A program made the translations under genes and the position numbers. A DNA stretch of 64,000 nucleotides from Pseudomonadota bacterium (GTDB lineage Bacteria > Desulfobacterota > Desulfobacteria > Desulfobacterales > JBDRRP01), in NCBI GenBank assembly GCA_043825735.1, contig JBDRRP010000139.1, forward strand, positions 1-64,000, given 5' to 3'. This document shows, piece by piece, positions 5,913 through 51,759 of the stretch. Position 1 is the first letter of the stretch. Each line of letters begins with the position of its first letter. Below the pieces are notes generated by a model that worked only from the letters and a program-made list of their open reading frames with translations, was not told the DNA's origin and did no database searches.

Positions 5913-7490
5913 TTGCCTATTGCGTCTGCAGCAGATGCGGCGGAATCGTCTTGCAAACGCAGGGCAATGGGCCTAAATGTGCGCCAGATGAAAATGATCC
6001 AGCCGGAAGCCGGGATGGCATCAGGGTATCGGCCCGATGGGCCACAGGGCGGGAGCGCTTTTGGAGAAGGTGCGGCGATGACGGTCTCGTTTTTTGAAAA
6101 GGAACGGCAACGGGAGCGGATTGCCGAAAATCTGGTCGAATTCGGTGAGCGCGGTGCTGACCTTAACTGGGTGAGCGGTGTCCGGGCGCAGACGGCGGAA
6201 GCCGAGCGGGCGCGCCTGCTGGGGGTCGTGGGTGATGCGGTCACGATGACCCATCGCCAGAGCAAACCGCACCTGGGGCCCTTGTCGCCGGGCTGCCGTA
6301 TTTGTGGTGAGGGGGCGTGGTCCTGCCTGTTTATCAATGGCAGCTGCAACTGCCGGTGCTTCTACTGCCCGACCGCCCAGGACGACATTTCGGTGCCGAC
6401 AACGAACCGGATCCCTTTCGACGAGGCCTCCGATTACGCCGATTATGTCAGGCATTTCGGCTTTACCGGCGCGAGCATCAGCGGCGGGGAGCCGCTGATG
6501 ACCCTTGGGCGGTCCCTCCGCTATATTCGGACCCTGCGTCATCGCCTGGGGCCCGGCCTGCACATCTGGCTATACACCAATGGTACCCTGCTGACGGCCG
6601 AAACCGTATCACGGCTCAAGGACGCCGGCCTGGATGAGATCCGATTCGACATCAGTGCGGCCGCTTACAGCCTGAAGCCGATCGGGCTTGCTGCCGGTCG
6701 AATTCCGGTCGTGACGGTGGAAATTCCGGCCATACCAGAAGACAGCGAATCACTTATAAAACTACTGCCGGCGTTGCGCGATGCCGGTGTCGATCATCTC
6801 AACCTTCATCAATTGCGGATTACACCGCACAACAGCGCCAACCTGGCAGCGCGCCCCTACACATTTCTCCACGGTGAGCGCGTGACCGTGCTGGAATCCG
6901 AACTGACCGCGCTGAAGCTCTTGGCCGCTGCCGCGGTCCAGAACATCGGCCCGCCCATCAATTATTGTTCATTTGTGTACAAGTACCGCTGCCAGCGGGC
7001 AGCGGTGCGGGGCCGCACGGCAGCGCTGATTTGCAAAGGCCATGAAGGAATCACTGAAAACGGGTACATCCGGCAGCTTGCCCTGTGCGGGCCGGCTGAC
7101 CAGATACGCCGTCAGGTAGATCGGCTGGTTACCCACGGCGTCGATCCTGCCCTGTGGTCGGCATCCGGAAAGGTGGATCGCCTCGCGTTTCACGAAACCC
7201 AGTGGCCGATGGTCGAGGATGCCGGCTGCACGGTGACCGTGAGCTATTCTCAGGCCGTTTTGCAGGCGCATGTGTCCTATCGGTGTGCGTTTACGGAGGT
7301 GCGGGTAGGCAGTGGCATGAAGCTTTTCATTGAAAAACAGCCGGTGTGCATGGCCCGCGTGCTCGGTGCCGAGGCCCAGCGATTGCTCAAAGGGTTGATT
7401 CGGGGATGCCCGGAGGAAAGCGGCTGGGCTGAAAACGAGACCATTGCCGGCTACGAGTGTATTTACCCGGGGCTTCAGGATTACTATTAA
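5913..7490 (+). CDS. radical SAM domain protein, activase-like, with an extra upstream Cys pair and a long C-terminal extension
   Basis: CNCRCFYC matches the CxxxCxxC motif. It is preceded by CRICGEGAWSC and followed by SISGGEPLM (SAM-binding GGE). The true start may be an internal Met (for example MTVSFF or MTHRQ). Confidence 0.7.
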   Translation: MPIASAADAAESSCKRRAMGLNVRQMKMIQPEAGMASGYRPDGPQGGSAFGEGAAMTVSFFEKERQRERIAENLVEFGERGADLNWVSGVRAQTAEAERARLLGVVGDAVTMTHRQSKPHLGPLSPGCRICGEGAWSCLFINGSCNCRCFYCPTAQDDISVPTTNRIPFDEASDYADYVRHFGFTGASISGGEPLMTLGRSLRYIRTLRHRLGPGLHIWLYTNGTLLTAETVSRLKDAGLDEIRFDISAAAYSLKPIGLAAGRIPVVTVEIPAIPEDSESLIKLLPALRDAGVDHLNLHQLRITPHNSANLAARPYTFLHGERVTVLESELTALKLLAAAAVQNIGPPINYCSFVYKYRCQRAAVRGRTAALICKGHEGITENGYIRQLALCGPADQIRRQVDRLVTHGVDPALWSASGKVDRLAFHETQWPMVEDAGCTVTVSYSQAVLQAHVSYRCAFTEVRVGSGMKLFIEKQPVCMARVLGAEAQRLLKGLIRGCPEESGWAENETIAGYECIYPGLQDYY

Positions 7491-7567
7491 ACGGCGGCCG
7501 CCGACGAAGGCATGCCAAGGCATGTCTCATCGGTAATCGGCCACCGTTTGTCCCATCATATGGCGTC

Positions 7568-7909
7568 TTAGGCTTTACGCAGAGAAATCCCGGATTTGGT
7601 TTTTCTGATGGCGAAAGCATCGCCTTCCACAAAGCCCATTTCCTCGACAAGGATTTTGGTGATGACCAGACTGCCGCGTTTGTTTACGGTCGCTACTTTG
7701 CTCACGGCTGCCTTTGCCGGCGTCTTTCGACCCTTTTTGATTTCCGGAACGGTGCCGGCTGCCATCAGTGCGTTCGCATAGGCCACTTTCAGCTGCGTGG
7801 GCGTTTTAAGCCCGAGTTTTTCCATGATTGCTTTTTGGGCTACGCCATCTTGAACCATGGCCAAAAGCGCTTTCTCATCAATGCTCTTTTTCTTCGGCAT
7901 GATCATCAA
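7568..7909 (-). CDS. small AbrB/MazE/SpoVT-type (swapped-hairpin) DNA-binding protein
   Basis: C-terminal KRGSLVITKILVEEMGFVEGDAFAIRKTKSGISL resembles the AbrB-N looped-hinge motif. Confidence 0.5.
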   Translation of the reverse strand: MMIMPKKKSIDEKALLAMVQDGVAQKAIMEKLGLKTPTQLKVAYANALMAAGTVPEIKKGRKTPAKAAVSKVATVNKRGSLVITKILVEEMGFVEGDAFAIRKTKSGISLRKA

Positions 7910-8456
7910 CTCCTCTCATAAATCGCGTTATAGGGAAATACATGGTGCGATGTCGTTATTGACAATTTTAATTGCAATTTTCGACTACAGGATCAAATAA
8001 TCCAAACGTGTTATGAGGTCAATTAAAAATTTAACTTTTCGTGTATGGTGCGAAAAAATGATTTTGAAAAATGCTATTTCCTTTTTGATACGGATTGGTT
8101 TCGCTCGAATATTTGCTAAATAAAAATGTGATATGGTATCGATGGCAGATCAAATGAAAGATCGATATTGAGCATGAAAACAGCGAAGGCGTGCATATTT
8201 GAATCCATTGTATGCGTTGTTGGAAATCTGTAGAAAGATGATTTTACAACCGGAATCTTTGTCGGATAAATTGTGAAAATTATGGCAATAAGGGATATGA
8301 CTTTTCTTTTTCAGTGCCAAAACGAGTGCATATTGCGTTGCGATTGACGCCCTCAAATAGCGCCCTGTGTGCCTTGGCCCGCAAGGGGTTTTCAAAAATG
8401 GCGGATGCGGGGCCAACCGGCGCAGCGTCAATAATCAGATTGTGTGCGTTTAAAAA

Positions 8457-9083
8457 GTGTGGTCGGCGATGATGAATATGAAGGAAAAAGAAGAAAGACT
8501 GAAAGGGATATATGCCGCATACGATGCGGTGGCGGCAGCATTCAAGACGGTTGCTGCCTGCTTCAAAGGCTGCGCATTTTGTTGTACCGATGCCGGCAGC
8601 ATCGACATTACAACGCTTGAGGGGGTGGTCATCCAAAACGCTCTTTCGCGCCGGCCTCGCGGCAGACAGACGGGGCTTAAGAAAACGCTGGCGGTTGACA
8701 TGAAACGGCGGCTGGCCGGAAAAACATCGGTCTGCCCGTTTCTTATGAAAAACCGAGTCTGTGAGATATACCCGGTCCGCCCTTTTTCGTGCCGGCGGAT
8801 CTATTCCCTGCACATGTGCACTCACGATGCCCCGCCCGTGGTCAGCCGACAGGCGATGGCTGCTGCTGCTGTGACCATTGGCGAGCTGCAGCGGCTCGAC
8901 GACACGGGCTATTCCGGTCATCTTTCCAGTATTCTTTTCATGCTCGATCAGCCCAGGTTTCTGGCCACTTATCAGTCCGGCGCTTTTCGTCCTGAAGAAA
9001 TCGTTGCGTTCGGAAAAACGCACAGGATTGTCATCAACCGAATGGCCGCCGGCGCACCGCCTCGATCGGAGCCGGCATCATGA
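8457..9083 (+). CDS. YkgJ/UPF0153-like putative Fe-S or zinc-chelating domain protein
   Basis: Cys clusters CFKGCAFCC and CPF...C..IY...PFSC resemble the CxxCxxCC family. Confidence 0.5.
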   Translation: MWSAMMNMKEKEERLKGIYAAYDAVAAAFKTVAACFKGCAFCCTDAGSIDITTLEGVVIQNALSRRPRGRQTGLKKTLAVDMKRRLAGKTSVCPFLMKNRVCEIYPVRPFSCRRIYSLHMCTHDAPPVVSRQAMAAAAVTIGELQRLDDTGYSGHLSSILFMLDQPRFLATYQSGAFRPEEIVAFGKTHRIVINRMAAGAPPRSEPAS

Positions 9084-37872: not shown

Positions 37873-37933
37873 AATCCTGTTTCCGGTTCTCTTTACAGCG
37901 CCAGTGCATCCCCAATGGCTGTTTTCTAACAGT

Positions 37934-37954
37934 CCTTCTTCGTGTCCTTCGTGG
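37934..37954. repeat. single arm of the CACGAAG-type element
   Basis: ccttcttcgtgtccttcgtgg upstream of lutA. Confidence 0.5.
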
Positions 37955-38291
37955 TAGCCATGTGAATTACTCCAGGCGACGCGGTTCTCAAGGCCAAGGT
38001 TTAGCGCTTCTTTTCGAATACCGCAATCCTTTACGGATGTCCGAAATCGTCGACGGTACGAAATATGTAATGGTGATCGGATTCCCGGGCAAAAACGTCA
38101 ACAATCTGGGAATCCAACAGCGTGGATGTGCCAATCATTTTGCAAACACAACAGACGTGAGATATATGGAGGAATGAAGCGACGCCAGTGACGCCTTAAC
38201 AGCAAAACACCCTTGACCCGTTGATCAAAAAATACAGCACCGCCGACACCCAGTGGATCGGCACGAAACAGGTCGGTAAAGGGATTGAACT

Positions 38292-39656
38292 ATGAAATCC
38301 GCCATCATGCGTCTTCCCCTTATCACCATGCTCCTATGCACACTTTTCCCGTCGTCGATCTGCGGGGCTACCGAACGCCGGACTGCATTGGTCATCGGAA
38401 ATAGTCACTACAGCGACGGACTTTTGAAAAACCCTGTCAATGATGCCACAGATATCGCCGCAGCCCTAAAGGGCCTTGGATTCACTGTTACCTTGAGGTT
38501 AGACGCAGATTTGCGCGTTATGAAAGATGAAATTGATAATTTCGGTGAAACCCTCAAAAAGGGTGGCGTTGGTCTATTCTTCTACGCTGGTCATGGTATC
38601 CAAGTCGGCGGCGTCAATTATCTGATTCCAGTTCGTGCCAAGATTAGTAACGAGAGGATGGTAGAGTACGAAGCGCTTGACGTCAACCGCCTATTGTCTT
38701 CATTGGATTACGCCGGGAACAGTCTCAATATTGTCATGTTGGATGCTTGCCGGGACAATCCCCTCGCCAGAAGTTTCCGTAGTGCAGGTAGAGGGTTGGC
38801 GATCATTTCCAGGACACCGCAAAGTACGATTATTTCTTTTTCAACAGGCGCCAATCAGGTTGCAGCTGACGGTGATGGCCGCAACAGCCCTTATACTGCT
38901 GCATTCCTGCAAAGCATTAAGACCCCGGGCCTACCGGTAGAGCAAGTATTTAAAAGCGTGCGTAACAAGCTCGTGGAAGACACTCAAGGCCGGCAGGAAC
39001 CTGCCGAGTATACTACATTAAGGGGAGATTTCTACTTCGTTCCACACCGCGGCGAGACGGAAAACAGTCCTGATACCGCTTCCACCCTGCCGAAATCATC
39101 ACCCGAACCGGCACCTGATGATTTGTCCCGGCAGCAGGCGCTCGATGGCGGGGGTGAGACGCTATCTGCAGAACGCCGCAAAACGGAAGCCGAGCGGCAG
39201 GCGCTGGCCATGGGGCAGCGGCTATCGGCCCCGGCAGCCGGCGAGACCGGCAGAGACGGTCATTTCATAGCCTATGACAACGGCACGGTTTTGGATACAA
39301 AGACGAGCCTGATGTGGGCGAGTAAAGATAATGGGAGCAATATCAGCTGGGCCAATGCCAGGTCCTATTGTGAAAATTACCGGGGCGGCGGCTATTCCGA
39401 CTGGCGGATGCCCACTCAGGATGAACTGGCGGGGTTGTATGATGCGGGCAAACCCCGGCCGGCAGCCTGCAGTATATGGTATCCCGTACATGTTGCGACA
39501 GAATTGATTGATATTACGTGTTATGTCGCCTGGGCCTCAGAATCGCGCGGTTCCGAGGCGGCCGTCTTCAATTTCGGCCTTGGCAATCGGTACTGGCTTC
39601 ACCAGTCCGATGATATCAGCGAGTCCCGGGCACTGCCGGTGCGCTCCGGCAGATAG
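38292..39656 (+). CDS. secreted caspase-family (peptidase C14) protein fused to a C-terminal DUF1566 (Lcl-like) domain
   Basis: Signal peptide. Catalytic dyad contexts YAGHGIQ and MLDACRDNP. A P/E/S-rich linker. C-terminal GTVLDTKTSLMWA...WRMPT typical of DUF1566. The N-terminal half is visibly AT-richer than the rest. Confidence 0.7.
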   Translation: MKSAIMRLPLITMLLCTLFPSSICGATERRTALVIGNSHYSDGLLKNPVNDATDIAAALKGLGFTVTLRLDADLRVMKDEIDNFGETLKKGGVGLFFYAGHGIQVGGVNYLIPVRAKISNERMVEYEALDVNRLLSSLDYAGNSLNIVMLDACRDNPLARSFRSAGRGLAIISRTPQSTIISFSTGANQVAADGDGRNSPYTAAFLQSIKTPGLPVEQVFKSVRNKLVEDTQGRQEPAEYTTLRGDFYFVPHRGETENSPDTASTLPKSSPEPAPDDLSRQQALDGGGETLSAERRKTEAERQALAMGQRLSAPAAGETGRDGHFIAYDNGTVLDTKTSLMWASKDNGSNISWANARSYCENYRGGGYSDWRMPTQDELAGLYDAGKPRPAACSIWYPVHVATELIDITCYVAWASESRGSEAAVFNFGLGNRYWLHQSDDISESRALPVRSGR

Positions 39657-40536: not shown

Positions 40537-40815
40537 TCAGGATGCCCGCGGGCAGTTCTCGGGGACCGGAAGATTGAGGTGGCGGCATAGGCGGATCGTC
40601 AGATCCGGGTCGCAGTGGTCGGCATCCACCAGGGCGTGGACGGCTTCCGGGGTGGCGTTCACGGCGGCAGCCGCTTTCTGCAGCGCACCGGTATCCACGT
40701 CGAGGGCTTCGGCGATGCGCACGGTGCAAGGACACACGTGGCACTCCCGGCGGTAGCAGTCCTCAAAGGCCGGGTCGCTGAGCATGTCCCGGCAAAGCGT
40801 TCTAAGCGTCTGCAT
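40537..40815 (-). CDS. putative antitoxin / small DNA-binding partner of the Gp49-like toxin
   Basis: Overlaps the upstream toxin ORF by 14 nt. 92 aa. Confidence 0.4.
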   Translation of the reverse strand: MQTLRTLCRDMLSDPAFEDCYRRECHVCPCTVRIAEALDVDTGALQKAAAAVNATPEAVHALVDADHCDPDLTIRLCRHLNLPVPENCPRAS

Positions 40816-41218
40816 GGGCCGCTGCCTCCAAACGGTTTTCCGGGGTCATGTCAAGAAACGCACTGCGGTAACGGATGACCTCGTCGATGATCCGCTCAGG
40901 CACCCGGTCGGTGTTTTTGACAAAGGCGTGGTAGAGAATGATGAAGCGCTGGTAACAAAAGAAGTAAAGCAGCCGCACCTGATCACCCGACAGCTTGATC
41001 CGCAGTTCATGGATCCCCTCTCTCAGGATGTCGGCGTAGGGCCGCGGGAGGGTGGGGCCTTGCTGCTCCAGCAGATCCAGAAACCGAAGAATTTTGACCT
41101 GGTGCTTTTGCTGGCGGGTTTCGATAAACTCCGAGACGGGGCAGCCCTGGATCTGCTCGTCGCAAAAAAGGACATGCCAGTGGGGCGTTGATGCGGTTGC
41201 CATGCCGATACGTTTCAC
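40802..41218 (-). CDS. Gp49-like (PF05973) type II toxin, RelE/ParE/HigB superfamily
   Basis: VRLLYFFCYQRFIILYHAFVKNTDRVPERIIDEVIRYR matches the phage Gp49 / HigB-like signature. Confidence 0.6.
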   Translation of the reverse strand: MKRIGMATASTPHWHVLFCDEQIQGCPVSEFIETRQQKHQVKILRFLDLLEQQGPTLPRPYADILREGIHELRIKLSGDQVRLLYFFCYQRFIILYHAFVKNTDRVPERIIDEVIRYRSAFLDMTPENRLEAAAHADA

Positions 41219-47782: not shown

Positions 47783-49291
47783 ATGCTTACCCGTCTTAAG
47801 ATTAACGGTTTTAAAAATTTGGTAGATGTGGATGTAAGGTTCGGCCCTTTCACATGCATTGCTGGCGCGAACGGGGTTGGCAAGTCAAACATGTTTGATG
47901 CAATACGATTTCTTGCAGCTCTATCCGACACAACCCTGCTTAACGCAGCTTTCTCAGTACGTGCGGAGGAAGGCAAGTCCCCAGATATCCGTGGGCTATT
48001 TCACCGTGCTGGCAAAAGCCATTCAGAGCGAATGCGATTTGAAGTTGAGATGATTGTCCCTCCAGAAGCGATAGATGATTTCGGGAAGAAAGGGACCGCT
48101 AAAATCACGTCACTTCGATATCTGCTTGAGCTTGCATACCGAAAACAAGAACCGTCTATGATGACAACGTTAGGGGGTGAACTCGAGATAGTTCGTGAGG
48201 AGTTGACTCATATACAGAAAGGCGCGGCAACCAAACATTTTTTGTTCCCGCACACCTTGCAATGGCGTGATTCTGCTATCACAGGGGCCTGTAGGTCACC
48301 GCTTATATCTACTGTTGGAGGAGAAGGCGGGCGAACATTAATCAAACTCCACCAAGATGGTAACAGGGGACGACCATCTCTCCATCCTGCTGACAATTTG
48401 CCTAGGACTGTGTTGTCTTCAGGGAATGCAAGTGAGAGCCCAACGGTATTATGTGCCAGGCGAGAAATGAGTTCTTGGAAGTTTTTACAATTGGAACCCT
48501 CGGCGCTCAGAAAACCGAGCGATTTCATTAGTCCAACACAAATCGGAACAGATGGTTTGAATTTGCCCAGTACCCTTTACCATCTTGCACGTTTAGCCCC
48601 GGAGCTTGGAATTGCAGCTGATGAAGATGCCGCCTATTGTCAAATTGCTAACAGATTGAGTGAATTAATTGGTAGTGTGGGATCAATCAGAGTAGATCGT
48701 GATGAAAAGCGAGAATTGTTTACTCTAATGCTTAAAGAGCTAAATGGGACAGAGTTGCCGGCAAGAGCTCTTTCAGATGGAACGCTTCGGTTTTTAGCTC
48801 TTGCAGTACTTGAAATGGATGGGCGGAGTGGTGAGGTTTTATGCCTTGAAGAGCCAGAAAACGGGATCCATCCAGAGCGAATTCCAGCAATAATCCGACT
48901 TCTTCAGGACATAAGCAGTGATGCAACAGATACGATTGATCCTACAAATCCATTGCGACAAGTAATAGTGAATACACACTCTCCGGCTGTTGTTAGTGAA
49001 GTCCCGGACGATTCACTGTTGGTGGCCGAGCTGGAAGAATCTGTAATTGGTAATGAAAAAATATCTCAGGCTCGTTTTAGCTGCTTGCCTGATACATGGA
49101 GAATGGATGCGATGGGAAAGCCAAATGTTATTGCTAGGGGAAAACTTCTATCCTATCTGAATCCAAACGCAATTAGTTATGATGGGAAAAGAGAGGGCGG
49201 TGCAGCAAGAGAAGGTGCTGTCAAGCGTAGGCGAAAGGTTCGCGAGCGAGATGACCTGCAACTTCTATTGCCGATGGAGTGCGAACAGTGA
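47783..49291 (+). CDS. ABC/AAA_21-type P-loop ATPase (SMC/RecF-like N-terminus), predicted ATPase subunit of a two-gene defence-like module
   Basis: Walker A AGANGVGKSN (MLTRLKINGFKNL start). Signature and Walker B context ALSDGTLRFLALAVL...VLCLEEPENGIHP. H-loop VNTHSP. Markedly lower G+C than the flanks. Confidence 0.75.
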   Translation: MLTRLKINGFKNLVDVDVRFGPFTCIAGANGVGKSNMFDAIRFLAALSDTTLLNAAFSVRAEEGKSPDIRGLFHRAGKSHSERMRFEVEMIVPPEAIDDFGKKGTAKITSLRYLLELAYRKQEPSMMTTLGGELEIVREELTHIQKGAATKHFLFPHTLQWRDSAITGACRSPLISTVGGEGGRTLIKLHQDGNRGRPSLHPADNLPRTVLSSGNASESPTVLCARREMSSWKFLQLEPSALRKPSDFISPTQIGTDGLNLPSTLYHLARLAPELGIAADEDAAYCQIANRLSELIGSVGSIRVDRDEKRELFTLMLKELNGTELPARALSDGTLRFLALAVLEMDGRSGEVLCLEEPENGIHPERIPAIIRLLQDISSDATDTIDPTNPLRQVIVNTHSPAVVSEVPDDSLLVAELEESVIGNEKISQARFSCLPDTWRMDAMGKPNVIARGKLLSYLNPNAISYDGKREGGAAREGAVKRRRKVRERDDLQLLLPMECEQ

Positions 49292-49923
49292 GTAGTTTTA
49301 GGTTTACTCTTGTTGCCGATGGACCATCAGATAGAGCATTGATGCCCATTCTAAAGAAATTGTGTAGCGATAACATTCTATCACCCATCCGTGGGGAATG
49401 GTTTGACCCTCGGCCCTTGGCTCCTCCCCGAATGGGGCTTAAGGATAGACTGGCGAGAGGCGTTCAGCTTTTCCCTTGCGATTTGTTGTTTGTGCATCGA
49501 GATGCTGAAACGAAAACAATTGCACAGAGGCGTGAAGAAATTAAACTGGCGATTGATGACATAGGGGAAGAGGTACATCGGATTCCTTATGTTTGCATAA
49601 TCCCGGTTAGAATGACTGAGGCTTGGCTAATTCTCGATGAGACAGCTATCCGGTTGGCCGCCGGCAATCCAAATGGCACTATGAGCCTTTTTCTGCCGCC
49701 AATAAATCGAGTGGAAAAGACTCCGGATCCCAAAAAAGTCTTGATAGAAGCGCTAAAGACAGCAAGCGGACTGCCCCCGCGACGCCAAAAGAAGTTGGAT
49801 ATTTCCCACCTCCGTGTTCGCGTCGCTGAATTGATAACGAACTACGAATTGTTGCAGCGTCTTTCAGCTTTCCGCGAGGTGGAGCGGAGCGTAAGGCAAT
49901 TTGCAAGTCAATGGAAAGCTTAA
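49279..49923 (+). CDS. small acidic partner protein with Toprim-like motifs (DUF4276/RloB-like), predicted nuclease/effector subunit
   Basis: Overlaps the ATPase gene by 13 nt. Acidic conserved positions TLVADGPSD, FVHRDAET, RMTEAWLILDE. About 214 aa. Confidence 0.55.
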   Translation: MRTVSSFRFTLVADGPSDRALMPILKKLCSDNILSPIRGEWFDPRPLAPPRMGLKDRLARGVQLFPCDLLFVHRDAETKTIAQRREEIKLAIDDIGEEVHRIPYVCIIPVRMTEAWLILDETAIRLAAGNPNGTMSLFLPPINRVEKTPDPKKVLIEALKTASGLPPRRQKKLDISHLRVRVAELITNYELLQRLSAFREVERSVRQFASQWKA

Positions 49924-49963: not shown

Positions 49964-51268
49964 TCACCGTATCAGATCGGGCAGAAAGGTCACCACTGCG
50001 GGAAAGGCCATCATGATCAAAAGGCAGATCAGGTAGGCCGGCAGAAACCAGGCCACGCCGCGAAAGACGTCTTCCAGAGGCACGTCCCGGGCCATGCCGC
50101 CCACGACGAAGGTGGTGGCCCCCACCGGAGGGGTGACCGCCCCCAGGGTCGTTACCACCGTGATGGTCACGCCGAACCATATGGGATCGTAGCCCAGTTT
50201 GCTGGCCACCGGAAAGAAGATGGGGATGGTGATCAGCAGCAGGGCCAGGGCGTCCATCACCGCGCCGCCGATGATGAAGATGGTGAAGATGATTGCCATG
50301 ATCACCATCGGCGGGACCGGCAGCCCGACGACCCAGGTGGCAATGTCGTAGGGGATCCGGGTGACGGCCAGAAAGCGGCCGAATATCACGGCGCCGGCGA
50401 CGATCATGATTACCATGCACGAGATCCGCAGGGTCTCTTCCATGGCGGCCACTAGCCCTTTCAGGCTCAGGCGCCGCTGAACCGCGCCGATGAGCACGGC
50501 GAAAAAGGACCCGGCTGCGCCGGCTTCCGCCGGTGTAAAAAATCCCAGCGACAGCCCGAGCATCACCAGACCGAAGAGAAGGATCATTTCCATCGCACCG
50601 GTGAGGGACCGGATCTTATCCCGCAACGAGGCCCGGGGGCCGGCCGGTCCCCAGTCCGGGTGGATGCGGCAGATCACGGCCACCGAGAGCACCATCAGCA
50701 GGGCGAGAAGCCCTCCGGCACCGATGCCGCCGTAGAACAGACGGGCAATGGACTGCTCGGTGGACAGGCCGATGACGATCAGCACCACGCTGGGGGGGAT
50801 CACCACCCCCAGCGTCGATCCGCAGGCGATGGCCCCGGTGCCCAGTTTGGGGTTGTAGCGGTATTTTTTCATCTCCGGCAGGGCCACGGTGGTCATGGTG
50901 GCTGCCGTGGCTGCGTTTGACCCGCAGATGGCGGCAAAAGCGGCGCAGGCCATAACGGTGGCCATGGCCAGACCGCCGCGGATATGGCCCACCCACTGGT
51001 AGGCCGCCCGGTAGAGTTTTTCGTTGACGCCGCTGTGAAAGGCGATCTGACCCATGAGAATGAACAGCGGAATCACCGTGAGGCCGTATTTGGAGAAGGT
51101 TTCCCACAGGGCGGTGCCCAGCATGTTGAGCGCTGCCGGCAGGGAGATGATGTACCAGAAGCCGGCAAAGCCCACCATGGCCATGGCAAAGCCCACCGGT
51201 GTGCCGAGAAAGAACAGGATGAACAGCAGCGCCGCGATGCCGATGCCGCCGATGGCCGCCAGACTCAT
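49964..51268 (-). CDS. dctM: TRAP transporter large permease subunit
   Basis: Start MSLAAIGGIGIAALLFILFF. About 434 aa with multi-TM DctM-like sequence. The ORF-track 5' extension is non-coding-like. Confidence 0.85.
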   Translation of the reverse strand: MSLAAIGGIGIAALLFILFFLGTPVGFAMAMVGFAGFWYIISLPAALNMLGTALWETFSKYGLTVIPLFILMGQIAFHSGVNEKLYRAAYQWVGHIRGGLAMATVMACAAFAAICGSNAATAATMTTVALPEMKKYRYNPKLGTGAIACGSTLGVVIPPSVVLIVIGLSTEQSIARLFYGGIGAGGLLALLMVLSVAVICRIHPDWGPAGPRASLRDKIRSLTGAMEMILLFGLVMLGLSLGFFTPAEAGAAGSFFAVLIGAVQRRLSLKGLVAAMEETLRISCMVIMIVAGAVIFGRFLAVTRIPYDIATWVVGLPVPPMVIMAIIFTIFIIGGAVMDALALLLITIPIFFPVASKLGYDPIWFGVTITVVTTLGAVTPPVGATTFVVGGMARDVPLEDVFRGVAWFLPAYLICLLIMMAFPAVVTFLPDLIR

Positions 51269-51759
51269 TTCGGCGCCTTTCCGGCCCGCGCCCGCAGAAG
51301 ACCGACCAGGTCCGCCGCCATCACCAGGGCCAGAAATGCGCAGCCCATCGCCACGGCGATGGTGAAGGGGTAGTAAATGATTCTCAGTGTTTCGGTAATC
51401 TCGCCGCTGCGCATGAGCACCAGCGCTTTGAGCGTCAGCTGCCATGCGGCCAGGCCGAAAAAGATGGTGCAGGCGCCGTTGTTGATCACCTGCAGCAGGC
51501 GCCGCAGACCGGGTCTGAAGGTGTTGACCAGGACGTCCACGGCGATGTGACCGCGCTGCATCCGGGTGTGGCCGAGGGCGAAGGCCGTTGCCACGGCGCA
51601 AAAAAGACCCATCAATTCATAGGCTCCCGGGATCGGCTTCCATACGGCGCGAAGAAATATGTTGGCGCAGGTGAGCAGGCACATGGCCGCAAGGCAAAGT
51701 CCGGCCAGCACCAGCAGCAGGCGGTTGGTTTTTTCAATGGGTTTCAAATGGTGCTCCAT
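51265..51759 (-). CDS. dctQ: TRAP transporter small permease subunit
   Basis: 164 aa with four TM helices. An ATGA overlap with dctM. Confidence 0.75.
   Translation of the reverse strand: MEHHLKPIEKTNRLLLVLAGLCLAAMCLLTCANIFLRAVWKPIPGAYELMGLFCAVATAFALGHTRMQRGHIAVDVLVNTFRPGLRRLLQVINNGACTIFFGLAAWQLTLKALVLMRSGEITETLRIIYYPFTIAVAMGCAFLALVMAADLVGLLRARAGKAPK

What the first reader, a model, noticed from the sequence alone, without database searches (positions are those of the whole stretch)
38292..39656. Secreted caspase (peptidase C14) fused to a DUF1566 domain, with a compositionally foreign protease half
A signal peptide is followed by a caspase-like domain with intact His/Cys dyad contexts (YAGHGIQ, LDACRDNP). 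After a P/E/S-rich linker and a short charged coiled-coil comes a C-terminal DUF1566/Lcl-like module (VLDTKTSLMWA...WRMPT). The first roughly 700 nt, which encode the protease domain, are clearly AT-richer than the 3' half and the flanks. This suggests domain acquisition by horizontal transfer and fusion. Bacterial caspase homologues (orthocaspases) occur in programmed cell death and defence contexts. A periplasmic or secreted form with a lectin-like DUF1566 domain is unusual and has no obvious partner gene here.
Basis: partly seen in the sequence, partly recalled or inferred. Interest (0 to 1): 0.6.

Follow-up and report, generated by a model that had tools for sequence, protein, structure and literature searches.

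The report
Exported caspase-like protease with lectin-like tail
This gene encodes a caspase-type protease that is exported from the cytoplasm and carries a lectin-like binding domain; it is a real but ordinary member of a large, uncharacterised family common in syntrophic sulfate-reducer relatives, and it is a patchwork of two family members, not a fresh fusion.

Summary
The ORF at 38292..39656 (+, 454 aa) is real. It has a Sec-type signal peptide, a Peptidase_C14 caspase domain (Pfam E=3.9e-36; best fold match is the MALT1 paracaspase) and a C-terminal Lcl_C/DUF1566 domain (E=1.2e-16; best fold match is Legionella Lcl-CTD 8q4e). A disordered acidic linker and a short helix lie between the domains. 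The His101/Cys153 dyad and three S1-pocket acids (D51, D151, D193) are invariant in 70 homologues, which predicts cleavage after Arg/Lys.

The fusion is not new or local. All 120 best database hits carry both domains, mostly from Syntrophales/Smithella MAGs and often as several paralogues per genome. NCBI already names this exact protein "caspase family protein".

The composition claim is only partly right. The 5' 700 nt are AT-richer (GC 0.50 vs 0.585), but the whole gene sits below the host's GC3, and the step inside the gene is marginal (p≈0.05).

The two halves do have different histories. The caspase part groups with one clade (200/200 bootstraps). The Lcl_C part is 82% nucleotide-identical to a gene whose caspase part is only 55% identical in protein. 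This is module swapping inside an already fused family. No conserved partner gene, DGR or defence context was found. Function is inferred, not shown.

The parts
37873..38291 (.). 419-bp intergenic region between the divergent lutA-like gene (-) and the caspase gene (+). It belongs to the same AT-richer tract as the 5' part of the gene.
   Evidence: GC is 0.489, and 37873-39119 together are 0.500 against 0.594 for 39120-39656. No sigma-70-like site above background was found upstream of the start, and there is no Rfam match.
38292..39656 (+). Complete ORF of 454 aa plus stop, encoding the exported caspase-Lcl_C protein.
   Evidence: ORF list. It is identical to database protein P0001, 'MAG: caspase family protein [Pseudomonadota bacterium]', and the same gene was called on Logan contig L001.
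38292..38366 (+). Predicted Sec signal peptide, residues 1-25 (MKSAIMRLPLITMLLCTLFPSSICG|ATERR). Signal peptidase I type, with no lipobox.
   Evidence: The hydrophobic core has a Kyte-Doolittle 12-residue maximum of 2.31. All 70 aligned homologues have an h-region followed by an AxA-like site directly before the conserved TERR. AF2 models residues 2-18 as a helix detached from the domain. SignalP was not run.
38376..39035 (+). Peptidase_C14 (caspase/paracaspase-like) catalytic domain, residues 29-248.
   Evidence: Pfam PF00656, E=3.9e-36, full-length profile match. AF2 pLDDT is 84-95. The top Foldseek PDB hits are MALT1 (E=2.5e-14), followed by caspases-11, -7 and -1 and CED-3.
38592..38594 (+). 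Catalytic His101 (in YAGHG).
   Evidence: It aligns with the YAGHG motif of MALT1 in the phmmer, hmmsearch and hhalign alignments. It is invariant in 70/70 homologues.
38748..38750 (+). Catalytic Cys153 (in LDACRD). Asp151 sits two residues upstream.
   Evidence: It aligns with LDMCRK of MALT1. C153 and D151 are invariant in 70/70.
38868..38870 (+). Asp193, the predicted S1-pocket acid. Together with Asp51 (38442-38444) and Asp151 (38742-38744) it suggests specificity for a basic P1 residue.
   Evidence: D193 aligns with the S1 Arg (SWR) of caspase-7 in a BLASTP alignment with E=0.006. D51 aligns with the Asp in PLVDV of MALT1. All three residues are invariant in 70/70.
39042..39161 (+). Disordered acidic P/E/S/T/D-rich linker, residues 251-290.
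   Evidence: pLDDT is 35-43. Net charge is -5 and pI 4.3. This is the most variable region of the family, with mean column entropy 1.90. It is 21 residues shorter than in the closest relative P0005.
39162..39209 (+). Short charged helix, residues 291-306 (LSAERRKTEAERQALA). It is a shortened remnant of the roughly 50-residue E/K/R-rich helix found in most homologues.
   Evidence: It is helical in both AF2 models but with low confidence (pLDDT about 53-64). The family consensus shows a long ExxKLExE...EERxKLEEE segment at this position. Coiled-coil formation was not tested.
39120..39251 (+). Zone of the inferred recombination junction (codons about 277-320). The GC3 change point falls here, and so does the switch of closest relative from the P0005 type to the P0045 type.
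   Evidence: The GC3 change point is at codon 277 (0.516 before, 0.661 after; z=3.04; p=0.047). Third-codon-position identity to L085 rises from 0.25-0.45 in codons 1-300 to 0.70-0.82 in codons 321-454.
39243..39653 (+). Lcl_C (formerly DUF1566) C-type-lectin-like domain, residues 318-454 (Pfam core 331-439).
   Evidence: Pfam PF07603, E=1.2e-16. The AF2 model of residues 285-454 has pLDDT 88.5, and 93-98 over the domain itself. The best Foldseek PDB hit is 8q4e_A, Legionella Lcl C-terminal domain (E=2.9e-4, rmsd 2.7 A over 119 columns). Next come Bd2740-CTD and the FGE, EgtB and TvpA lectin-type folds.
39444..39626 (+). Variable surface patches of the Lcl_C module (residues 385-400, 411-413 and 425-445), flanked by the conserved Cys393 and Cys410.
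   Evidence: Column entropy is 2-3.8 bits here, against 0-1 bit in residues 326-384. This segment, including a shared DISESRALPVR insertion, matches only P0045.

Best explanation
The gene encodes an extracytoplasmic protein with two modules.

1. The Sec pathway exports it, and signal peptidase I removes residues 1-25.
2. The N-terminal module is a clan CD, family C14 caspase-like cysteine endopeptidase. It has a His101/Cys153 dyad and an acidic S1 pocket (Asp51, Asp151, Asp193). It should therefore cleave after Arg or Lys, as paracaspases, metacaspases and orthocaspases do.
3. A flexible acidic linker and a short charged helix connect it to a C-terminal Lcl_C (DUF1566) C-type-lectin-like module.
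4. That module most likely tethers or targets the protease to a ligand in the periplasm, on the cell envelope or in the matrix. By analogy with trimeric Lcl it may also drive oligomerisation.

The protein belongs to a large paralogous family in Syntrophales and related Thermodesulfobacteriota. In this family a conserved protease head is combined with interchangeable, fast-diverging extracytoplasmic binding modules. This copy is itself a mosaic. Its promoter-proximal, AT-richer two thirds (signal peptide, caspase, linker) are of one family type (P0005-like). Its 3' third (Lcl_C) is of another (P0045-like). The two were joined by recombination near codons 277-320.

Shown: the ORF, the domains, the folds, the residue conservation, the family distribution and the mosaic history. 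Inferred: export, P1 specificity, the targeting role, oligomerisation and the biological substrate.
For: - Domains and folds.
- The dyad aligns on the catalytic motifs of MALT1.
- D51, H101, D151, C153 and D193 are invariant in 70/70 homologues, and D193 aligns with the S1 Arg of caspase-7.
- A signal-peptide-like N-terminus occurs in 70/70 homologues.
- Homologues add only extracytoplasmic-type modules: PG_binding_1, PDZ, PEGA, YfiO-like TPR, FGE-sulfatase, extra Lcl_C and cyclophilin.
- The family is abundant, with several paralogues per genome.
- No conserved neighbours were found.
- Mosaic, protein level: the caspase domain sits in a clade with P0005/16/20/39 in 200/200 NJ bootstraps. The Lcl_C domain groups with P0045 in 172/200 and with the P0005 clade in 1/200.
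- Mosaic, sequence detail: the window and P0045 share C-terminal motifs and an indel.
- Mosaic, nucleotide level: the Lcl_C module is 82% nucleotide-identical to L085, while the caspase parts are 55% identical in protein. The change in third-position identity is sharp.
- The GC3 step lies at about the same place as that switch.
- Across the family, Lcl_C identity is uncorrelated with caspase identity.
Against: - No activity, localisation or ligand data exist for any member. Literature searches found nothing on this architecture.
- The Lcl_C module here is acidic (net charge -3, pI 5.3). This is unlike the cationic glycosaminoglycan-binding surface of Lcl (PMC11162425), so the ligand cannot be transferred from Lcl.
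- The signal peptide was judged by rules of thumb, not by SignalP.
- The compositional step on its own is marginal (p=0.047).
- NJ trees on 127 columns can be misled by the long branches of the P0005-clade Lcl_C domains.
- Which lineage is the recombinant (the window's or P0045's) is unresolved.
Confidence: 0.7

Rival explanations
1. One reading: a compositionally foreign caspase domain was acquired recently by horizontal transfer and fused in this genome to a resident DUF1566 gene, creating a new architecture.
For: The 5' 700 nt are AT-richer (GC 0.499 vs 0.585; GC3 0.50 vs 0.64). In 20 of 24 homologues the caspase half is not the AT-richer one, so the pattern is specific to this gene. The two halves have discordant phylogenies.
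Against: All 120 best hits already carry both domains in the same order, and the closest relatives of each half are themselves complete fusions. The Lcl_C half is also below host GC3, at the 5th percentile. Synonymous sites between the caspase half and its nearest relative are near saturation, so no recent donor is visible.
Confidence: 0.05
2. There was no recombination. The gene evolved vertically as a unit. On this view the GC step is sampling noise or a 5' codon-usage effect, and the discordant trees reflect fast, uneven evolution of the Lcl_C surface.
For: The change point has p=0.047, and comparable z scores occur in many other genes of the window. The Lcl_C domains of the P0005 clade are long-branched, at 54-68% identity to each other. 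P0005 also keeps fairly high synonymous identity to the window in the Lcl_C region.
Against: Third-position identity to L085 jumps from 0.25-0.45 to 0.70-0.82 at the domain border. Over the Lcl_C module the two genes are 82% nucleotide-identical and share an indel, yet their caspase parts are only 55% identical in protein. Rate variation cannot produce that pattern.
Confidence: 0.12
3. It is a cytoplasmic orthocaspase acting in programmed cell death or anti-phage defence, with the lectin-like domain serving as a sensor.
For: Bacterial caspase homologues occur in conflict systems. There is a weak PADLOC 'caspase' hit (30 bits) and a sub-threshold match to the EACC1-associated caspase model (46 bits against a cutoff of 140). 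A HigB-like toxin-antitoxin pair and a HEC-01 candidate defence pair lie within 1-10 kb.
Against: The signal peptide is conserved in 70/70 homologues. Partner domains in the family are extracytoplasmic types. There is no NTPase, sensor or effector neighbour, and no conserved neighbourhood in 27 loci. The HEC-01 island is 8 kb away and compositionally distinct.
Confidence: 0.05
4. The Lcl_C module is the variable region of a diversity-generating retroelement (DGR) target, so the mosaic and the variability come from mutagenic retrohoming.
For: DUF1566-type lectin folds are an established class of DGR targets (PMC5758913). Orthocaspase-lectin proteins are DGR targets in cyanobacteria (PMC7517822). 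In this family, variation is concentrated in C-terminal patches of the domain.
Against: No template-repeat-like copy of any part of the gene exists in the 64-kb window. No open frame of 200 aa or more carries a Y[AVIMLC]DD reverse-transcriptase motif. In homologous loci the only internal repeats are tandem Lcl_C domains that match in their conserved 5' halves, not in the variable parts.
Confidence: 0.03

Closest known systems
Bacterial orthocaspases/metacaspases with C-terminal lectin-fold domains (the caspase-FGE-sulfatase architecture surveyed in PMC3501461; orthocaspase-CLec variable proteins in PMC7517822)
   Same: An N-terminal C14 domain with a His/Cys dyad is followed by a C-terminal domain of the C-type-lectin/FGE structural class. 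One homologue (P0044) even carries caspase-PEGA-FGE-sulfatase-Lcl_C. The 2012 survey noted N-terminal hydrophobic helices as likely signal peptides.
   Different: Here the lectin-fold module is Lcl_C/DUF1566, not FGE-sulfatase. No DGR is present. The family is centred on Syntrophales/Thermodesulfobacteriota, not cyanobacteria. No paper found describes this pairing.
MALT1 paracaspase (human; PDB 3uo8, 3v4o, 4i1p)
   Same: It is the best sequence and fold match for the protease domain. The YAGHG and LDxCR catalytic motifs are identical in register, and the acidic residues equivalent to the S1 pocket are kept.
   Different: This protein has no death domain and no Ig domains. It is exported, not cytosolic. 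Identity is about 22% over the fold alignment. The similarity is in the catalytic core only, so it is not a paracaspase by architecture.
Legionella pneumophila collagen-like adhesin Lcl, C-terminal domain (PDB 8q4e; PMC11162425)
   Same: It belongs to the same Pfam family (PF07603) and is the best structural match. In both proteins the domain sits at the C-terminus of an exported protein, preceded by an elongated or helical region.
   Different: Lcl has a collagen-like stalk and no enzyme domain. Lcl-CTD has a cationic surface that binds sulphated glycosaminoglycans, whereas this module is acidic (pI 5.3) and has conserved cysteines that Lcl-CTD lacks. Trimer formation was not tested here.
Stand-alone exported Lcl_C/DUF1566 proteins of Syntrophales and relatives
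   Same: They are 60-74% identical to the window's Lcl_C module. In three of the four closest relatives, a gene encoding a signal peptide plus Lcl_C lies directly downstream of the caspase-Lcl_C gene.
   Different: They have no protease domain, and none is adjacent in this window.

Membership tests
Peptidase family C14 (caspase / paracaspase / metacaspase / orthocaspase), Pfam PF00656 | Profile match above the curated threshold across the whole domain | tested here: met
   125.3 bits against a cutoff of 21.4; profile positions 1-233 of 233; residues 29-248
Peptidase family C14 | Caspase-hemoglobinase fold | tested here: met
   AF2 pLDDT is 84-95 over the domain. Foldseek finds MALT1 at E=2.5e-14, then caspases-11, -7 and -1 and CED-3.
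Peptidase family C14 | Catalytic His and Cys at the positions of the known dyad | tested here: met
   H101 (YAGHG) and C153 (LDACR) align with YAGHG and LDMCR of MALT1. Both are invariant in 70/70 homologues.
Orthocaspase/metacaspase/paracaspase subgroup (specific for a basic P1 residue) | Acidic residues in the S1 pocket in place of the caspase Arg/Gln/Arg | tested here: met
   D51 aligns with the Asp in PLVDV of MALT1, and D151 with the Asp of LDMC. All three are invariant. This is sequence-level evidence only.
Peptidase family C14 | Proteolytic activity that depends on the Cys | not testable with these tools
   Needs the recombinant protein and a C153A mutant.
Paracaspase (MALT1-type architecture) | Death domain and Ig-like domains flanking the caspase domain | tested here: not met
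   Pfam finds only PF00656 and PF07603. The N-terminus is a signal peptide.
EACC1-associated caspase (NCBIfam NF047832) | Score above the curated cutoff | tested here: not met
   46 bits against a cutoff of 140
Lcl_C / DUF1566 (Pfam PF07603) | Profile match above the curated threshold | tested here: met
   61.5 bits against a cutoff of 34.9; residues 331-439
Lcl_C / DUF1566 | Fold of the solved Lcl C-terminal domain (C-type-lectin-like) | tested here: met
   The model has pLDDT 88.5. The top PDB hit is 8q4e_A at E=2.9e-4, rmsd 2.7 A over 119 columns and 24% identity.
Lcl-like glycosaminoglycan adhesin (function of Lcl-CTD) | Strongly cationic outer surface that binds sulphated glycans (PMC11162425) | tested here: not met
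   The domain has net charge -3 and pI 5.27. This is a bulk-charge estimate only; the surface was not mapped.
Lcl-like adhesin | Trimerisation through the C-terminal domain | not testable with these tools
   No multimer prediction or biophysical method was available.
Sec-exported protein (signal peptidase I substrate) | Basic n-region, hydrophobic h-region and a small-residue -3/-1 cleavage site | tested here: met
   K2/R7, an h-region with KD12=2.31, and ICG|A. The same layout is found in 70/70 homologues. This is a heuristic check; SignalP was not available. There is no lipobox.
DGR variable protein (DUF1566 / CLec2 class) | A template repeat matching the variable region, plus a nearby reverse transcriptase | tested here: not met
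   No repeat of the gene occurs in the window. No frame with an RT-motif was found. The rest of the genome was not searched.
Known anti-phage defence systems (PADLOC) | A specific model match together with the system's partner genes | tested here: not met
   There is only a generic 'caspase' hit, at 30.4 bits and covering part of the profile. No partner genes are present.

The most novel reading that the evidence does not exclude
The caspase-Lcl_C proteins may be a family of lectin-guided extracellular 'addressed proteases'. An invariant Arg/Lys-specific caspase head would be delivered to different surface ligands by swappable, hypervariable Lcl_C tips. The tips might oligomerise and so activate the protease by induced proximity. 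Candidate ligands lie on syntrophic partners, competitors, matrix polymers or the cell's own envelope. Repeated module exchange and multiple paralogues per genome would then reflect selection on target recognition, as with phage or Bdellovibrio fibre tips.
Probability: 0.12. Interest if true: 0.6.

Novelty: new member of a known kind. Interest (0 to 1): 0.3.

Why it matters
On its own the finding matters little. It is one more uncharacterised bacterial caspase homologue, already annotated in NCBI and sharing its architecture with hundreds of relatives.

Two points have some value. First, it documents that a sizeable branch of bacterial C14 peptidases is exported and coupled to lectin-fold binding modules. 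This argues against the reflex reading of bacterial 'caspases' as cytoplasmic cell-death or defence effectors. Second, the protease head and the Lcl_C module have uncoupled histories: there is a clear module swap in this gene, and the identities of the two domains are uncorrelated across the family. That suggests the binding module is the part under diversifying pressure. This gives a concrete hypothesis to anyone who wants to characterise these proteins in syntrophic Thermodesulfobacteriota.

Tried and rejected
- **Amino-acid composition or a family-wide trend as the cause of the low GC of the protease half.** Rejected. In 20 of 24 homologues the caspase half has equal or higher GC3 than the Lcl_C half.
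- **A recent donor for either half.** None found. Synonymous sites against the closest caspase relative are near saturation. A search of the 5.8-billion-protein set with the Lcl_C module alone returned only stand-alone Lcl_C proteins at 74% identity or less. It did not re-list P0001 or P0045.
- **DGR.** No template repeat and no RT motif. Internal repeats in homologous loci are tandem Lcl_C domains.
- **A conserved partner gene.** Clustering the neighbours in 27 loci gave nothing shared beyond occasional extra Lcl_C genes.
- **Synteny test for a recent insertion.** Eighty metagenome loci with LutA relatives (76% identity or less) lack the caspase gene. They also lack the genes on its other side, so they are too distant to date an insertion.
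- **Profile and BLAST alignment of the p10-like region to MALT1.** This failed: hhalign stops at residue 155 and BLASTP finds no hit. Only the caspase-7 alignment worked.
- **Sequence search of the PDB for the Lcl_C half.** No hit. The relationship to 8q4e appeared only in the fold search.
- **Promoter, terminator and Rfam scans.** Nothing above background around the gene.
- **Host taxonomy from GlpK.** This resolved only to Thermodesulfobacteriota, with named hits mostly Desulfobacterales at 70-74% identity.
Full report
**Observation**

All quoted motifs are present at residues 98-104 (YAGHGIQ), 150-157 (LDACRDNP), 333-343 and 371-375. Pfam finds Peptidase_C14 over the whole profile (residues 29-248, E=3.9e-36, 125 bits against a cutoff of 21.4). 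It also finds Lcl_C, formerly DUF1566 (residues 331-439, E=1.2e-16, 61.5 bits against 34.9). NCBIfam adds only a sub-threshold match to the EACC1-associated caspase model (46 bits against 140).

**Protease module**

- Sequence searches of the PDB, with the single protein and with a 70-sequence profile, put the human MALT1 paracaspase first (E=1e-12 and 3e-20). YAGHG aligns on YAGHG and LDACRD on LDMCRK, which are the catalytic His and Cys motifs.
- An AlphaFold2 model built on 70 homologues has pLDDT 84-95 over this domain. Foldseek against the PDB returns MALT1 (E=2.5e-14), followed by caspases-11, -7 and -1 and CED-3.
- H101, C153, D51, D151 and D193 are invariant in the 70 aligned homologues.
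- D51 and D151 align with the Asp residues of MALT1 in PLVDV and LDMC.
- D193 aligns with the Arg of the caspase-7 SWR motif, which lines the S1 pocket.
- From established knowledge of clan CD enzymes, three acids in these positions indicate specificity for a basic P1 residue, as in paracaspases, metacaspases and orthocaspases. This is an inference.

**Export**

- The N-terminus (MKSAIMRLPLITMLLCTLFPSSICG|ATERR) has a basic n-region, a hydrophobic core and a small-residue -3/-1 site immediately before the start of the domain. It has no lipobox.
- All 70 homologues share this layout, with sites such as LQA|A, SHA|A and SPA|A before a conserved TERR.
- Longer family members add only modules typical of the cell envelope: PG_binding_1, PDZ, PEGA, YfiO-like TPR, FGE-sulfatase, cyclophilin and up to three Lcl_C repeats.
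- SignalP was not available, so export is well supported but not formally predicted.

**Linker and lectin-like module**

- Residues 251-290 are P/E/S/T/D-rich, acidic (net charge -5) and modelled as disordered.
- Residues 291-306 form a short charged helix of low confidence. Most homologues have a roughly 50-residue E/K/R-rich helix here, and this copy lacks 21 residues relative to its closest relative. 'Coiled-coil' is therefore unverified.
- A separate model of residues 285-454 has pLDDT 88.5. Its best PDB match is the crystal structure of the Legionella Lcl C-terminal domain (8q4e_A, E=2.9e-4, rmsd 2.7 A over 119 columns). The next matches are the Bdellovibrio fibre-tip domain Bd2740-CTD and the FGE, EgtB and TvpA lectin-type folds.
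- The Lcl paper describes that domain as a C-type-lectin-like trimer whose cationic surface binds sulphated glycosaminoglycans (PMC11162425).
- The module here is acidic (net charge -3, pI 5.3) and has conserved cysteines (C360, C393, C410). The fold transfers from Lcl, but the ligand does not.

**How common is the fusion?**

- The exact protein is already in NCBI as 'MAG: caspase family protein [Pseudomonadota bacterium]'. All 120 best hits in the 5.8-billion-protein collection carry PF00656 plus PF07603, at 45-68% identity over the full length. They come mostly from Syntrophales, Smithella, Syntrophus and 'Deltaproteobacteria' MAGs.
- A scan of one genome per GTDB species found 206 related stretches. 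About 24-27 of the best 80 cover both domains, and several MAGs carry two to four copies.
- A further population of small stand-alone exported Lcl_C proteins is 60-74% identical to this module.
- The host is a Thermodesulfobacteriota-type anaerobe, judged from GlpK and from the gene content of the window.
- The 2012 survey of prokaryotic caspase homologues already listed N-terminal hydrophobic helices as probable signal peptides, and FGE-sulfatase (another lectin-class fold) as the fifth commonest partner domain (PMC3501461).
- I found no paper on the caspase-DUF1566 pairing itself.

**Context**

- The gene stands alone. It is divergent from a lutABC-like operon and convergent with a DUF3786 gene. 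A Gp49/HigB-like toxin-antitoxin pair follows.
- Neighbours differ in every relative examined. Clustering all neighbours in 27 loci gave no shared family, apart from occasional extra Lcl_C genes.
- Three of the four closest relatives have a gene of about 240 aa, encoding a signal peptide plus Lcl_C, directly downstream. This window does not.
- PADLOC gives only a weak generic caspase hit. Rfam finds nothing in the window.

**Composition**

- The first 700 nt have GC 0.499, against 0.585 for the rest and 0.587 for the window. GC3 is 0.50 for the caspase part and 0.64 for the linker and Lcl_C.
- This is not a family trait. In 20 of 24 homologues the caspase half has the higher GC3.
- Two qualifications apply. 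First, the other long genes of the window have GC3 of about 0.77 (224-codon windows: sd 0.054, minimum 0.634). The Lcl_C half (0.636, 5th percentile) is therefore also atypical, and the whole gene, with its 419-bp upstream spacer (GC 0.49), stands out. Second, the best internal change point (codon 277) has z=3.04 and permutation p=0.047, and similar values occur in many other genes of the window. On composition alone the claim of a 'foreign half' is weak.

**History of the two halves**

- The caspase domain is 81-88% identical to P0005, P0016, P0020 and P0039, and 55-62% identical to everything else. It joins those four in 200/200 NJ bootstraps.
- The Lcl_C domain is 57-69% identical to those same four but 78% identical to P0045. 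It joins P0045 in 172/200 bootstraps and the P0005 clade in 1/200.
- The window and P0045 share the variable C-terminal motifs and a one-residue insertion (…FNFGLGNxYWxHQSxDISESRALPVR) that the other sequences lack.
- At the DNA level, third-codon-position identity between the window gene and the P0045 gene (L085) is 0.25-0.45 in codons 1-300 and 0.70-0.82 in codons 321-454. Over the Lcl_C module the two genes are 82% nucleotide-identical.
- The switch lies between about codons 300 and 320, next to the GC3 change point at codon 277.
- Rate variation cannot produce this pattern. At least one exchange of modules between two members of the family occurred.
- Which lineage is the recombinant cannot be decided. 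The L085 gene also has a GC3-richer Lcl_C end (0.58 against 0.46).
- The phenomenon is general across the family. Pairs with 90-100% caspase identity average only 66% Lcl_C identity (minimum 42%), the same as pairs with 50-60% caspase identity. Some of this reflects comparison of different repeats in proteins with several Lcl_C domains.
- Variation is concentrated in residues 385-400, 411-413 and 425-445, while residues 326-384 are nearly invariant.

**DGR check**

DUF1566-type lectin folds are a recognised class of DGR targets (PMC5758913), and orthocaspase-lectin proteins are DGR targets in cyanobacteria (PMC7517822). I therefore looked for a DGR. No part of the gene is repeated in the window. 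No long frame carries a reverse-transcriptase YxDD motif. Repeats in homologous loci are tandem Lcl_C domains that match in their conserved halves. There is no evidence for a DGR here.

**Interpretation**

The best-supported reading is an exported, probably Arg/Lys-specific, caspase-like endopeptidase that is tethered or addressed by a C-type-lectin-like Lcl_C module. It is one member of a large, modular, paralogous family in syntrophic Thermodesulfobacteriota. This copy was assembled by recombination between two family types. Export, specificity, the targeting role and possible oligomerisation are inferences. The substrate and ligand are unknown.

**Verdict**

This is a new member of a known kind and of modest interest (0.3). 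The most novel reading not excluded is a family of 'addressed' extracellular proteases with swappable, diversifying recognition tips. I put its probability at about 0.12.

Noticed in passing
window 47783-49923 (+): Two overlapping ORFs form the lowest-GC3 island of the window (GC3 0.38 and 0.45, against about 0.77 elsewhere). One is a 502-aa AAA_21/AbiEii-like ATPase and the other a 214-aa partner. They match the PADLOC candidate defence pair HEC-01A (E=1.6e-98) and HEC-01B (E=2.7e-23), which suggests a horizontally acquired defence module.
   Followed up: partly
window 40537-41218 (-): A Gp49/HigB-like toxin gene (40802-41218, PF05973) overlaps a 92-aa upstream partner (40537-40815). This is a probable toxin-antitoxin pair about 1 kb downstream of the caspase gene, at a point where synteny with LutABC-carrying relatives is lost.
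   Followed up: partly
window about 7450-9023: A second AT-rich patch, with GC down to 0.40 around 7800. Its ORFs at 7457-7921 (+) and 8280-9023 (-) have GC3 of 0.52-0.55. It was not annotated.
   Followed up: no
L083 3556-4278; L084 6520-7245; contig of P0016: In three of the four closest relatives, the caspase-Lcl_C gene is followed directly by a gene of about 240-256 aa. It encodes a signal peptide, a conserved FWDSVKDS...FPNG..A.LAKARL motif and a single Lcl_C domain. This may be a lineage-specific partner, and it is absent from the window.
   Followed up: partly
L084 3835-4845: A DUF4384 (PF14326) gene lies directly upstream of the caspase-Lcl_C gene in one close relative. This was seen once only.
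   Followed up: no
window 38292-39656, residues 155-178: The loop after the catalytic Cys (DNPLARSFRSAGRGLAIISRTPQS) is modelled with lower confidence (pLDDT about 64-66). It contains Arg163 and Arg167, both invariant in 70 homologues. They could be autoprocessing sites for an Arg-specific protease, analogous to the caspase intersubunit linker.
   Followed up: no
window 49964-51601 (-) and other long ORFs: Several mechanically called long ORFs show strong GC3 steps near the 5' end (for example z=8.5 at codon 102 of 49964-51601). These most likely arise because the longest-ORF start lies upstream of the true start. It is a caveat for any composition scan within single genes in this window.
   Followed up: no
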